Assembly (NCBI GenBank): GCA_030141605.1
Contig: JAQGDQ010000450.1
Location: forward strand, 1 to 64,000
Direction: 5' to 3'
DNA: 64,000 nt
Origin: Tubiluchus corallicola
Lineage: Eukaryota > Animalia > Priapulida
The first letter of the stretch is position 1, and the number at the start of each line of letters is the position of its first letter. Position numbers and translations under genes: made by a program. A model generated the notes under the pieces. It searched no databases and was not told where the DNA came from. It saw only the letters and a list, made by a program, of their open reading frames with translations. This document shows, piece by piece, positions 32,501-40,980 of this stretch.

Positions 32501-34973
32501 CCCCTGTTGATAAGATTCTGTATCGCATACGCATGCTTTCATGTCATCCGTAAGCAGTTATTTTTTGTGTTTTAGAGGATCGCCGTTTTGAACCACGAAC
32601 TTTCGTCGCACTCCTCACGACAGGAAGAGGAGGAAACTTTGCCGGATGAGTTTCCAAGCGTAAGTTCCTCTTTCGAGCTATTTTATTTTATTTTTTGTAG
32701 TAATAGTTAGGCTGTTATTTATATATGTTTGAAGGTCTTACTGCTCAGTTAACACGTATGTATATTAATACTCAGTATATATGTATGCAAAAAGTTAGCA
32801 CAGTAAATATATATTGTTCATGTAATGTAAGTTATGTTCATGTATTGTAATGTAATGTAATGATGATCATTGTTAACACACATCTAGAGCCTCCTTTTGT
32901 AATCAAAGATAGCTTCATCGGTAAGGATGATCATGTATGCACTTTACTAAAGATTCATCTCAAAATGTGCACTAGTTATGATTGTCTGTTTTTTAACTCT
33001 TTATGAAATTTAAGTTTTTAACACACCGAAAAATGCAACATTGTGTTGTACTAAAACTAGGCAAGCTTCAAGATAAAAATTCAAATTTACTGCTCTGTTC
33101 ACGCATGAGCTGTTGAACGTGTGCAGTTCGTCAGAAACTAACACATCTCAACTGATAGGTACAGCACCTGTTTTTTGTGCAATGCGTTTCCGAAATGCAG
33201 GTGCTAGTGCCTGTCTAACTAGCGAATGGCGAAATACATGTAGCAGTGAAGAACTAGTGGCGCGAAAGTGAAATTGTGTTTGTGTGGTAATAATTCTTTC
33301 ACGTAGTCTTTTTTGAAAAAGTAGTATGTTTCCTTTCAATATTTTAAAGAATAGATTGTTCTAGACTGTTAAGACTCTCTCTTAAGACAACTCTTAAGAA
33401 TAGACCCATAAGATTGGATCCGGTTTTGCTTTAAGGCCTTTGTGTTAGTTTGAGTTTCGTCCACCAGAGTGAGCTTGATCTTGTCTTTCTATGCTCTTGC
33501 CCTTGCTTTCTTTCATTGTTACACCTGTTTTCAAGTAATGTTGTGTTTTAGTAAATTAAGTAATGTAGTAATTTAAGCGATACAAATGAATACACTGATA
33601 TGCTGTATCTGTACGTTCTCGTCTTATCTGTGAAGTTACTGTTTTTAGGAAGACGACTCTGATCAAGTGGAGAAAGCCAAGAAAGATGCTGAGGAAGTTC
33701 GGAAACTACAGAAGCTGTTCAAAGGACTAAAGTTTTATCTCGGACGCGAGGTCCCACGCGAATCGCTCATCTTCGTGATCAGGCGAGTGTTGGGTGTCCT
33801 TGAAGTTGGCTTGTAACTGAGCTGTACTTGTACTTGTACTAGTATTGAGCTGTACTTGTACTTGAACTGAGCTGTGTTTTACGTAATGTAGAATAATTCT
33901 TCATTTAAATGCTTGTGATGTATTAGCTGACCACTTCTTGAAGCAAAATTTGCAGCTGTGTATTATTATATATATATGTGTACTTGCAAACCAAAATCGT
34001 CCATAAGTCGTCATAGTTAAAACTACATTATGATGCTTCTAAGTAGGATGCACCAAATATTTAGTCAAATTTTGCAAATTGCAATATGAAATGCATTTGC
34101 TTACTTTAGATAAATTAAAAATCGATTTTTTCGACGAAAAATTGAAAAAAAGCTTGCAACAACTGCAGTGTTTGCTCTGTAACAATGTACAGTATCACTT
34201 GTGTGAAATCGATTAATGCAGAAAATTTCAACTACCCAGACACAACACTCTGGTACACTTTGGCCTCAAGTCTGCACTATTTTTAAGGAGAAATTCCTGT
34301 TAAAAGATGAAACAGTTGGCTGATCGGTTAGTTTTTCCTGGAATAGCAGCACAACACTACACAGCTTGGACTGTACCAAGCAGGCAATCAATAAAATAGT
34401 GTGTACTATCACGCAAGTGTACACCAGACTAAGCTACTCAATAGGCTAAGTTGGAGTGTCTGAAAAGGGCATGTTTTTCTTAATTTTATTAAATTAAATC
34501 GCTTATAAATGCCTAAACAAATAGCATGATTGAATAGCCAAGATTGTCCTGAATAGAACAGTACCTGATTTGAATCATTTAGTTATGTCTGTTCTCATAC
34601 AGTAGCAGAAAAGTCACAGGTCTTATAAGACTTGAATGGCGCGGCCCTGAAAGAGTTTAATTAATATAAAACTTCTACTCTTTGAGACAAAACTTAAATT
34701 TCAAATAAATATGCTTATACTCACTTCTATTCTGCATTAATGTTCACGCTAACGTAATTTGCAACATTGAAAGTTGTTTTGGGGATTTTCAGGATTGCAC
34801 CTTTTGCTCGATGTGGCTGTCAATTTTGTTCTTTCTTCGTTTAGGTCATTTGGTGGCGAGGTATCGTGGGACAAGTCGTCGTGCATAGGCGCTACATACG
34901 ATGAGACAGATGAGAGTATAACGCATCAAATTATCGACCGCCCTAGTGTAGCAGGAAAACAATATTTATCTAG
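16065..34973 (+). CDS. PES1: Pescadillo homolog (PeBoW ribosome biogenesis factor), exons 1-10
   Basis: join(16065-16085,20251-20330,21015-21168,22406-22515,26272-26443,27215-27304,29741-29932,32576-32659,33649-33782,34845-34973). Frame is consistent throughout: [48 protein letters not shown]...[12 protein letters not shown]...[13 protein letters not shown]...[14 protein letters not shown]...[32 protein letters not shown]. Confidence 0.97.
17328..18976. repeat. 47-bp minisatellite, ~35 near-identical copies (PES1 intron 1)
   Basis: Unit acagagtgtagagcatgctcgttggagttgctgagaaagaggagatc. Confidence 0.98.
19037..19527. mobile_element. hAT-like MITE (inverted relative at 48355-48837)
   Basis: TIRs tagtgttgggc / gcccatcacta. 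Confidence 0.7.
19762..20183 (+). mobile_element. 5'-truncated L2/CR1-type LINE 3' end with short (CTTAT)n tail
   Basis: Encodes [18 protein letters not shown]; same family as 35816-36790 and 39376-40980. Confidence 0.85.
20251..20330 (+). CDS. PES1: PES1 exon 2
   Basis: tttcag|GGA...TTTCG|gtac; [27 protein letters not shown]. Confidence 0.95.
20436..20851. mobile_element. hAT-like MITE
   Basis: TIRs caggggtgtgcaaa / tttgcacacccctg; 8-bp TSD atttatca; second copy at 30524-30929. Confidence 0.9.
21015..21168 (+). CDS. PES1: PES1 exon 3
   Basis: [55 protein letters not shown] flanks. Confidence 0.95.
21565..22135. mobile_element. interspersed repeat (direct copy at ~34085-34650)
   Basis: Long co-linear similarity from gaaatgcatttgctta to aatggygcggccctgaa. 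Confidence 0.7.
22406..22515 (+). CDS. PES1: PES1 exon 4
   Basis: [37 protein letters not shown]. Confidence 0.95.
23157..23489. mobile_element. pogo/Tigger-like MITE
   Basis: TIRs cagtcgaccctcgttaaaccggac / gtccggtttaacgagggttggctg followed by TA. Confidence 0.8.
23656..23930. repeat. ~135-bp diverged tandem duplication
   Basis: gccctgcatgaccc...gatacgtatcagagcc occurs twice. Confidence 0.85.
23945..24718. repeat. 46-bp minisatellite, ~17 copies (some 44-bp variants)
   Basis: Unit taagaattttcagacagaaatatttaaaaacttcataccatgttcg. Confidence 0.97.
24775..25181. mobile_element. hAT-like MITE
   Basis: cagggtttgcac ... gtgggaccctg termini with ggaaa subterminal repeats. Confidence 0.55.
25548..26133. 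repeat. 15-bp degenerate tandem repeat (gtagtgaaagccggc)n
   Basis: Directly visible; gives spurious VVKAG-repeat ORFs with a frameshift. Confidence 0.92.
26272..26443 (+). CDS. PES1: PES1 exon 5
   Basis: [57 protein letters not shown]. Confidence 0.95.
26662..27048. repeat. 24-bp minisatellite, ~16 copies
   Basis: Unit taaactgccgtaacttaaggcacg. Confidence 0.97.
27215..27304 (+). CDS. PES1: PES1 exon 6
   Basis: [30 protein letters not shown]. Confidence 0.95.
27331..27605 (-). mobile_element. tRNA-derived SINE (same family as 507-1070)
   Basis: Reverse complement of the 507-750 element with an (AAT)n tail. Confidence 0.85.
29223..29523. repeat. (CT)n microsatellite
   Basis: Directly visible. 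Confidence 0.97.
29741..29932 (+). CDS. PES1: PES1 exon 7
   Basis: [38 protein letters not shown]...EEEVANE. Confidence 0.95.
30524..30929. mobile_element. hAT-like MITE (copy of 20436-20851)
   Basis: Same TIRs; TSD ttgtagaa/ctgtagaa. Confidence 0.9.
31880..32381. repeat. ~123-bp tandem repeat, ~4 copies
   Basis: Unit starts aaacctcraaacaaggtgctgtacctctcagttcag. Confidence 0.95.
32576..32659 (+). CDS. PES1: PES1 exon 8
   Basis: ttttag|AGG ATC GCC...CCA AGC|gtaagt; [28 protein letters not shown]. Confidence 0.85.
33649..33782 (+). CDS. PES1: PES1 exon 9 (start of BRCT; GC donor)
   Basis: [12 protein letters not shown]...[24 protein letters not shown]; donor AG|GCGAGT. Confidence 0.92.
34845..34973 (+). 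CDS. PES1: PES1 exon 10 (BRCT)
   Basis: [43 protein letters not shown]; phase-2 donor AG|GTATGT. Confidence 0.95.
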
Positions 34974-39375: not shown

Positions 39376-40980
39376 TTAAGATAAGATAAGATAAGATAAG
39401 CTAAGATAAGGTAAGGTAAGGTAAGGTAAGCTAAGATAAGGTAAGGTAAGGTAAGGTAAGATAAGATAAGGTAAGATAAGATAAGATAAGATAAGATAAG
39501 ATAAGATAAGGTAAGGTAAGGTAAGTTAAGGTAAGGTAAGGTAAGGTAAGGTAAGGTAAGGTAAGATAAGATAAGGTAAGATAAGATAAGATAAGATAAG
39601 ATAAGATAAGATAAGATAAGATAAGATAAGATAAGTTAAGATAAGATAAGATAAGATAAGATAAGATAAGATAAGATAAGATAAGATAAGATAAGATAAG
39701 ATAAGATAAGATAAATAAGATACAAATAAGATAAGATAAGATAAAAAAGATAAGATAAGCAAAAAAAAGATAAAGTAAGATAAGATAAGATAAGATAAGA
39801 TAAGATAAGACAAGATAAGATAAGGTAAGATAAGGTAAGGTAAGAAAGATAAGATAAGATAAGATAAGATAAGATAAGATAAGATAAGATAAGATAAGAT
39901 AAGCTAAGCTAAGCTAAGCTAAGCTAAGCTAAGCTAAGATAAGATAAGATAAGATAAGATAAGATAAGATAAGATAAGATAAGATAAGATAAGATAAGAT
40001 AAGATAAGATAAGATAAGATAAGATAAGATAAGATAAGATAAGATAAGATAAGATAAGATAAGATAAGATAAGATAAGATAAGATAAGATAAGATAAGAT
40101 GATATTTATTTTCATCGGTATGATATAAAACAGTACATATTTGTAAAACATGAGCTTAAAGCTCATAAACCTATATCAAACATAATGTATATGAGCGATA
40201 ACGTGGTAATAATATATGTACATAATAAAATCTTTTGGANNNNNNNNNNNNNNNNNNNNNNNNNNNNNNNNNNNNNNTACGAGAGCAGTAAAAATTTGAG
40301 ACAGTAAAATTTTAGGCAGTGACATTTTCTAAAATTTACACAAAAAGCTATCTAGGTCAATAAAAATTTTTCCTGCCAACACATTCAGCATTTAATTATG
40401 AGAAGTTCGCTGAATTTACAAATGGCACATTTACATGATACACCAGTCCATGAGTTAATTAGAGGTTTAACTTCCCCAAGATTTTCGGCCATTCGGAGAC
40501 AGTTTGGTAATTCATTCCACAATGTGGCTCCATAATAGGAGAAACTTTTCTTGCCATATGTAACACCATCATATGTAGGGTGTTCTGCAGTGTTCATTTT
40601 TCTGAGGAAGTAGCGGTTTTGCTTTTGTTCCTCTATCAGTCCATAGAGGTAGGACGGGCAGTTTTTGGACAAAATCTTGAATACTTCGATAGCAATGAGA
40701 CATTGTCTCTGAAGTTGAAGAGACACAAAATTGTCTTTAAACAATAGATTTTCGTAGGTACTTTCGAAATCATTATAAACTCTCTGAAATTCAAATGCTC
40801 TAATTTCTGGCTATTTGATTTACTACAGAAATGCCAGATTACAGGGCAGAAATTAAAATTCGACTTGACAAACGAAAGGTAGATGAGTTTTCGACATTTT
40901 ACCGACAAGTTTCGCCCAATACGGCGTAGAACATTAATCTGTTTAGCTGCTTTTTTGCACAGGGCTGAAATGTGCGGGCT
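39376..40980 (-). mobile_element. 5'-truncated, frameshifted L2/CR1-type LINE with (CTTAT)n tail
   Basis: ORF2 remnants SNFNFCPVIWHFCSK... and ...[18 protein letters not shown]...CKCAICK; tail at 39376-40100; spans the N gap. Confidence 0.88.
40240..40277. other. assembly gap (38 N)
   Basis: N run; the matching stretch in the 19762-20183 LINE copy is ~37 bp, so the gap size looks realistic. Confidence 0.99.

What the first reader, a model, noticed from the sequence alone, without database searches (positions are those of the whole stretch)
34845..40980. PES1 is split across strands: two essential exons sit in a ~2.6-kb segment flipped between inverted LINE microsatellite tails
Seen: exon 10 (+) ends phase 2 at 34973 (…YLS AG|gt). 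The exact continuation (ag|G TAC TAC GTT CAG CCT = R-YYVQPQW…LPPHLSPFV) is on the minus strand at 39183-38999, followed by an acidic exon at 38783-38613. Both have intact frames and canonical splice sites. The flipped block (~36790-39375) is bounded by two oppositely oriented, non-identical copies of one LINE whose (CTTAT/CTTAC)n tails (~800 and ~720 bp) face inward. Flipping the block inside the tails restores a collinear gene. Established: PES1 is essential and the split falls within its BRCT domain; inverted repeats cause both real inversions and assembler mis-orientation. Inference, in order of likelihood: assembly artefact; polymorphic or somatic repeat-mediated inversion (an invertible exon cassette); trans-splicing from the opposite strand as in Drosophila mod(mdg4). 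Weak hint: 36801-36821 resembles the reverse complement of 40979-41001, as a decayed TSD would if the un-flipped order were ancestral.
Basis: partly seen in the sequence, partly recalled or inferred. Interest (0 to 1): 0.8.

Follow-up and report, generated by a model that had tools for sequence, protein, structure and literature searches.

The report
Flipped exons: likely an assembly error
Two exons of the essential ribosome-making gene PES1 sit backwards in this sequence between two long inverted repeats, but sequencing data from matching animals show the forward order is the original one and the gene's last exons are missing too, so this is likely a genome-assembly mistake rather than new biology.

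Summary
PES1 exons 2-10 are on +. Exon 11 (39183-38999) and an acidic exon 12 (38783-38613) are on -, in frame with canonical splice sites, between inverted (CTTAT/CTTAC)n tails of one LINE family.

Three new results:
(1) Contigs of a public sample show the LINE-free form of the left insertion site running from 35813 straight into the minus strand at 39376. The exon 10 to exon 11 order is therefore ancestral, and the flip arose inside the tails, after the insertion.
(2) Flipping does not complete the gene: the conserved C-terminal exons are absent from all six frames of the window.
(3) The proposed target-site duplication is at chance level and lies inside LINE coding sequence.

A 38-N gap lies 140 bp from the right tail. 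No record spans either tail, so present-day orientation was not read directly. Best reading: a mis-join at microsatellites longer than short reads (0.8). Rivals: real inversion on one haplotype (0.12), real flip in a spare copy (0.03), fixed flip with trans-splicing (0.03). No earlier finding of the scan matched.

The parts
20251..33782 (+).
   Evidence: in phase, 0 stops; exon 9 has a GC donor; exon 8 rests on a weak HMM hit (E 0.54) plus splice sites and phase
34845..34973 (+). PES1 exon 10, ends in phase 2 inside the BRCT domain
35743..35813 (+). Left half of the insertion site; LINE-free contigs continue from 35813 into the minus strand at 39376
   Evidence: X1 records 1 and 2, X2 record 10
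35816..35953 (+). LINE copy A: 5'-truncated 3' end only
   Evidence: other family copies carry different upstream letters before 35816 (table 7)
35955..36785 (+). Tail A: about 25 CTTAT units, then about 129 CTTAC units, with a decayed far edge
36786..39376 (-). Block lying opposite to the gene's orientation; its left half is mostly high-copy repeats, its right half low-copy
   Evidence: depth table
38999..39183 (-). PES1 exon 11 (YYVQPQW...LPPHLSPF), intact; two segregating variants, both synonymous
   Evidence: variants
38613..38783 (-). Acidic exon 12, AG acceptor and GTAAGT donor, in phase with exon 11
   Evidence: homology is weak because of low complexity (E about 1)
39346..39376 (-). 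Right half of the insertion site of LINE copy A
   Evidence: loose ends match 27 of 31 positions (compared by eye); the first 16 match exactly and only here
39377..40100 (-). Tail B: mainly CTTAT units with CTTAC and CTTAG units and an irregular middle
40101..41028 (-). LINE copy B: frameshifted reverse-transcriptase C-terminus plus 3' UTR
40240..40277 (.). 38-N assembly gap, the only gap in the window; its size fits the family spacing (45 versus 46 bases in copy C)

Best explanation
The PES1 gene of this animal is likely an ordinary cis-spliced gene, and the reversed 2.6-kb block is likely an assembly mis-join at two inverted microsatellite tails. Shown: a LINE 3' end with a long (CTTAT)n tail is inserted between 35813 and the sequence that now starts at 39376 on the minus strand, so exon 10 originally led into exon 11 on one strand. 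A related LINE with the same kind of tail lies nearby in the opposite orientation. Inferred: the two 720-830-bp tails, which share up to 132 identical bases, could not be spanned by the reads, so the contig carrying exons 11-12 was joined to the wrong tails. The piece with the last exons was likely dropped or placed elsewhere in the same tangle.
For: Empty-site join: X1 record 1 (depth 97.7) and X2 record 10 (depth 7.2) fit 35743-35813 and run on with letters that match the minus strand from 39376. X1 record 2 (depth 93.3) shows the same join with a variant. The 16-mer occurs once in 64 kb, at exactly that base; chance mean 0.01, 1 of 100 shuffles. All 11 exons found are intact and in phase. 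The two exon-11 variants listed are synonymous (weak, 2 of 2). Exon-11 depth in X1 splits into two alleles (88.7 of 190.5), as for one diploid locus. The C-terminal motif is in 104 of 109 homologues over 440 aa but absent from the window: best E 2.1, against E <= 2.2e-9 for 19 of 19 leave-one-out controls. The assembled locus is therefore incomplete whichever way the block points. A gap sized to within one base lies 140 bp from tail B, which suggests paired-read scaffolding (inference). PES1 and its BRCT domain are essential (PMC1807956 abstract and sections 13-14; PMC1474060 passages). Reverse-complement repeats are a known cause of false inversions (10.1101/2022.07.06.499059, abstract; bacterial genomes).
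Against: No record spans either tail, so the present orientation was not read. The empty-site join gives the ancestral order only, and a real inversion after the insertion would look the same. Sample S1 shows a filled form (X2 record 9) and two empty forms, so at least one empty form is a paralogous repeat copy, not an allele. X3 did not show the join (its one flank contig continues differently), and X5 laid nothing. The sequencing technology behind the window is unknown. BRCT-defective Pes1 is unstable and not built into PeBoW (PMC1807956 abstract), so a real null allele could be carried in a heterozygote.
Confidence: 0.8

Rival explanations
1. A real inversion, probably with loss of the 3' exons, arose by recombination between the inverted tails on one haplotype. 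The animal is a heterozygous carrier of a null PES1 allele, and the assembler kept that haplotype.
For: The arms are inverted over about 870 bp at 86% identity and lie 2.6 kb apart. Repeat-mediated ectopic inversions are known (PMC2775673, search listing and abstract start only). The ancestral order is collinear, as this model also needs. BRCT-less Pes1 is not incorporated into PeBoW (PMC1807956 abstract), so carriers could be viable.
Against: It needs two events (flip and loss of 3' exons) in an essential gene, caught in the one haplotype that was assembled. The exons show no decay. An assembly gap sits beside the breakpoint.
Confidence: 0.12
2. The flip is real and fixed because this is a spare, dying duplicate of PES1, with a working copy elsewhere.
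For: The locus lacks its C-terminal exons. No whole genome was available to look for a second copy.
Against: 0 stops or frameshifts in 11 exons. Exon-11 depth in X1 fits two alleles of one locus, and the variant contig also carries the flanking intron. A copy under 85% identity would not have been laid.
Confidence: 0.03
3. The flip is real and fixed, and the mRNA is made by trans-splicing exon 10 to a minus-strand transcript carrying exons 11-12, as in Drosophila mod(mdg4).
For: Splice sites and phases match across strands. LINE copy B points towards exon 11 on the minus strand. Opposite-strand trans-splicing exists in insects (PMC4387717, PMC4667647, passages).
Against: Matching phases are equally expected of a mis-oriented block. 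The minus-strand transcript would run from exon 12 into tail A and antisense exon 10 without meeting the C-terminal exons. The order was collinear until after a LINE insertion that is 96% identical to another copy, so the mechanism would have had to arise at once in an essential gene. The mod(mdg4) TSA core has 0 matches at up to 2 mismatches.
Confidence: 0.03
4. The block is a somatically invertible exon cassette that switches PES1 on and off.
For: Only the inverted-repeat anatomy.
Against: The boundaries are retrotransposon tails in a repeat-rich intron, not conserved recombination sites. One orientation would be a null of an essential gene. It does not account for the missing 3' exons.
Confidence: 0.02

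Closest known systems
False inversions at reverse-complemented repeats in genome assemblies (10.1101/2022.07.06.499059, abstract read; bacterial genomes)
   Same: A segment bounded by a reverse-complemented repeat pair; re-inverting it restores the expected order.
   Different: Here the block is 2.6 kb in an animal intron, the repeats are LINE microsatellite tails, and the evidence is exon order plus an empty-site join rather than strand composition.
PES1 / Pescadillo / Nop7 of the PeBoW complex (Pfam PF06732 + PF16589; PDB 8fkp_SM)
   Same: Exons 2-12 encode the N-terminal domain, the BRCT domain and the acidic region; exon 11 is 69-83% identical to the 120 listed homologues.
   Different: The conserved C-terminal motif is not in the window, and exon 1 was not located.
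Drosophila mod(mdg4) trans-splicing (PMC4387717 and PMC4667647 passages; PMC12692577 and PMC13490949 abstract starts)
   Same: Exons of one protein lie on opposite strands.
   Different: mod(mdg4) has many alternative 3' exons with their own promoters and a conserved intronic TSA motif. Here there are two constitutive internal exons, no TSA match, repeat-tail boundaries and a collinear ancestral state.
Transposon-mediated ectopic inversions, e.g. Galileo in Drosophila (PMC2775673, search listing and abstract start only)
   Same: Oppositely oriented copies of one element lie at both breakpoints.
   Different: Here the breakpoints would cut an essential gene, and the reality of the inversion is unproven.
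CR1/L2-type non-LTR retrotransposons with 3' short tandem repeat tails (clade label recalled, not tested)
   Same: Reverse-transcriptase C-terminus (PF00078-bearing relatives), AATAAA followed by a pentamer tail, and no clear target-site duplication at the empty site.
   Different: The tails here have grown to 720-830 bp, while a third copy in the window has about 14 bp.

Membership tests
PES1/Pescadillo gene | Pescadillo_N and BRCT coding exons in order and in frame | tested here: met
   (order is broken only by strand at exon 11)
PES1/Pescadillo gene | Conserved C-terminal motif after the acidic region | tested here: not met
   best window E 2.1; 19 of 19 controls E <= 2.2e-9; absent from this window, which may not hold the whole gene
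Repeat-induced false inversion (assembly) | Reverse-complement repeats at both boundaries, too long for short reads | tested here: met
   arrays of 830 and 724 bp; the read length of the assembly is unknown
Repeat-induced false inversion (assembly) | Re-inversion restores an independently attested order | tested here: met
   empty-site join 35813 to 39376(-); exon phases
Repeat-induced false inversion (assembly) | Spanning reads of the source animal contradict the assembled orientation | not testable with these tools
   only de Bruijn contigs were available and none spans a tail
mod(mdg4)-type trans-splicing | Fixed opposite-strand arrangement in the genome | tested here: inconclusive
   ancestral order is collinear; present order not read directly
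mod(mdg4)-type trans-splicing | U1-binding TSA core in the last 5' intron | tested here: not met
   0 matches at up to 2 mismatches (1.8 expected by chance); best pseudo-donor in 34974-35955 pairs 8 of 11; the motif was defined in Drosophila only
mod(mdg4)-type trans-splicing | Independent promoter and transcript for the 3' exons, and chimeric mRNA | not testable with these tools
   no RNA holder listed
Non-LTR retrotransposon (LINE) | Reverse-transcriptase homology | tested here: met
   12 of 62 candidates at E <= 1e-10, 6 with PF00078; maps them to 41028-40409
CR1/L2-type clade | Placement in a reverse-transcriptase tree | not tested
   label recalled

The most novel reading that the evidence does not exclude
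A recent microsatellite-mediated inversion really flipped two essential PES1 exons and is fixed, and the animal rebuilds the mRNA by trans-splicing from the opposite strand. This would be a newborn, obligatory trans-spliced housekeeping gene outside insects whose collinear ancestral state is still readable.
Probability: 0.03. Interest if true: 0.85.

Novelty: not a real feature. Interest (0 to 1): 0.1.

Why it matters
As a likely artefact it matters only as a warning: in this assembly, inverted (CTTAT/CTTAC)n LINE tails likely mis-orient and drop exon-bearing pieces, so strand-split or truncated genes next to such tails need read support. If it were a real heterozygous inversion, it would be a small example of microsatellite tails creating null alleles. 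If it were fixed and rescued by trans-splicing, it would show how trans-splicing can begin.

Tried and rejected
TSD hint (36801-36821 versus 40979-41001): local alignment score 8, reached by 76% of 2000 shuffles and by 71% of 2994 random window pieces. The other three flank pairings scored 7-8 and were no better. The stretch also lies inside the reverse-transcriptase match 41025-40783. Rejected.

Idea that the gap hides the missing exons: the spacing across it is 45 bases against 46 in copy C, so it is likely a true ~38-base gap. Rejected.

Idea that 40101-40239 is the second allele of copy A: no contig with flank plus B-type letters was listed; the one bridging contig (X2 record 9) fits A. 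Not supported.

Candidate exon at about 43476-43512 (seen by eye): lies inside a repeat shared with 12395-12662 and had no HMM hit. Rejected.

Exon 1 pattern search in 8001-20251: no candidate.

No own genome held. X5 laid nothing; holes prove nothing. In one search the tables were crowded by high-copy repeats (1077 loose ends, 117 variant rows and 65 joints not shown). Pfam found no family for the isolated exon 9, 10 and 11 peptides or the LINE frames; identity rests. A homologue search with exon 7 found no close relative (13 hits; at most 59% identity among those covering over 80% of the query).

Earlier-findings look-ups returned nothing; one search listed 8 of 33 notes, none related. A paper search for 'pescadillo' with 'trans-splicing' gave 11 papers, 10 listed, none with either term in title or abstract (listing only). 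PMC3747384 passages gave no support on CR1/L2 tails. No supplements were read.
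Full report
The observation. Eight full-length PES1 homologues were mapped on the window by tblastn. In 8 of 8, eight exons lie on the + strand between 20.25 and 34.98 kb and the next segment lies on the - strand from 39185. An invertebrate-weighted HMM added a weak hit for exon 8 (E 0.54) and for the acidic exon 12 (E about 1). Read one by one, the 11 exons chain in phase with no stop, all have AG acceptors, ten have GT donors and exon 9 has GC. Exon 10 ends in phase 2 at 34973 and exon 11 starts in phase 2 at 39183. The junction falls at about residue 398 of P0014, inside its BRCT_2 match 333-421.

The boundaries. Pentamer arrays lie at 35955-36785 and 39377-40100 and are inverted. Their outer neighbours share 128 of 140 bases. 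The right element is a frameshifted LINE: 12 of 62 candidates matched at E <= 1e-10, six of them with PF00078, and three tested proteins map to 41028-40409. The left element is only its 3' end; other family copies carry different letters before 35816. A third copy with a tail of about 14 bp sits at 19761-20183. The longest exact match between the arms is 132 bases. The window's only gap, 38 N at 40240-40277, is inside the right element, and its size agrees with the third copy to one base. I infer paired-read scaffolding from this; the technology is not known.

The TSD hint fails. Its score of 8 is reached by 76% of shuffles and 71% of random window pieces, and the stretch lies inside the reverse-transcriptase match.

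Ancestral order. No genome was held. Six runs were listed, all as contigs; four hold part of the stretch, from two studies. Contigs of X1, X2, X3 and X5 were laid on 35680-35870. In X1 (record 1, depth 97.7) and X2 (record 10, depth 7.2; same sample S1), a contig fits 35743-35813 and then runs on with loose letters. Their first 16 letters match the window once, on the minus strand starting exactly at 39376, the exon-11 edge of the block (chance mean 0.01; 1 of 100 shuffles). By eye, 27 of 31 positions agree (compared). X1 record 2 (depth 93.3) shows the same join with one change. So the LINE-free form of this site joins the exon-10 side directly to the exon-11 side, with no clear duplication, and the block was flipped inside the tails after copy A inserted.

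Limits of that result. X2 record 9 bridges the filled junction, so S1 holds three forms and at least one empty form is a paralogous copy of a low-copy repeat. The join therefore shows the ancestral order, not necessarily a living allele. X3's one flank contig continues differently, and X5 laid nothing.

The block itself. X1-X4 were laid on 36790-39376. Its left half is mostly high-copy repeat. In X1, exon 11 shows two alleles (88.7 of 190.5); both listed exon variants are also in X3 and are synonymous. X1 record 8 runs 30 letters past 39376 and stops, as expected where a contig meets a microsatellite (inference). No listed piece spans the stretch. Many rows were cut from these tables, so they do not show absence.

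The gene is incomplete in either orientation. A C-terminal motif was found by pattern in 104 of 109 homologues over 440 aa. Of the five misses, three end early, one has replaced sequence there, and one has a diverged motif. An HMM of that region finds nothing in the six frames of the window (best E 2.1), while 19 of 19 leave-one-out 35-residue controls score E <= 2.2e-9 (some controls have close kin in the training set). Other introns of this gene are 0.2-3.8 kb, and 25 kb with three other genes follow, so exons beyond the window are possible but unlikely. Exon 12 read through its donor reaches a stop after two codons, and AATAAA follows at 38491 and 38242-38198, so a short terminal exon cannot be excluded. 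However, the donor is a perfect GTAAGT, and a C-terminal truncation of human Pes1 is dominant-negative (PMC1474060, passages).

How it most likely arose. Shown: the collinear ancestral order, inverted tails, intact exons, a neighbouring gap and missing 3' exons. Inferred: the assembler could not span the tails, attached the exon 11-12 contig to the wrong ones, and lost the piece with the last exons (0.8). A real inversion on one haplotype predicts the same empty-site join and is not excluded (0.12). BRCT-defective Pes1 cannot replace the wild type, is unstable and is not built into PeBoW (PMC1807956, abstract and sections 13-14), so the assembled allele would be a null that a heterozygote might carry. 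[quoted passage not shown] A spare dying copy (0.03) is disfavoured by the intact exons and the two-allele depth. Trans-splicing (0.03) would need a fixed flip, a new minus-strand transcript and the missing exons. The mod(mdg4) TSA core (PMC4387717, passages) has no match at up to two mismatches. An invertible cassette (0.02) has only the anatomy in its favour.

Comparison and novelty. The pattern works like known false inversions at reverse-complemented repeats (10.1101/2022.07.06.499059, abstract only). The defining test, spanning reads, could not be run. It is not filed as mod(mdg4)-type trans-splicing. One paper search for pescadillo with trans-splicing showed no paper with either term in title or abstract among 10 of 11 listed. 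Look-ups in the scan's earlier findings returned nothing related. Verdict: the sequence feature is as described but is likely not a feature of the chromosome; interest 0.1.

Noticed in passing
window 33782-33788: PES1 exon 9 uses a GC donor (GCGAGT); the phase fits exon 10.
   Followed up: partly
window 40239 and 35816-35819: The gap edge in LINE copy B falls within 3 bases of the position where copy A is 5'-truncated. Unexplained; it may mark where the assembler confused the two copies.
   Followed up: partly
window 38306-39156: Run X3 (kind unknown) has one 844-letter contig at depth 34.6 over exons 11-12 and intron 11, while neighbouring low-copy contigs have depth 2.5-9. Unexplained.
   Followed up: no
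window 38612-38198 (minus strand): Read-through of the exon 12 donor gives a stop after two codons, with AATAAA at 38491, 38242, 38229 and 38198; a possible short terminal form.
   Followed up: partly
window 36860-37345: Element with terminal inverted repeats (MITE-like) inside the block, at very high contig depth.
   Followed up: partly
window 19761-20183: Third copy of the same LINE, with a tail of only about 14 bp, 67 bp upstream of PES1 exon 2.
   Followed up: yes
window 39700-39850: Irregular A-rich stretch in the middle of tail B; it could be decay or low-quality read ends.
   Followed up: no
window 46833-47888 (+), 52610-53677 (-), 54917-56341 (-): Long open frames for a sulfotransferase, a rhodopsin-family GPCR and a C2H2 zinc-finger protein downstream of PES1.
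   Followed up: partly
window 10405-11127 (+), 12985-13680 (+): Two open frames of 240 and 231 aa upstream of PES1 with no Pfam family at E <= 0.01.
   Followed up: partly
window 17327-18979, 11134-11756, 23944-24717: Minisatellite arrays: 47 bp x 35, 72 bp x 9 and 46 bp x 17.
   Followed up: no
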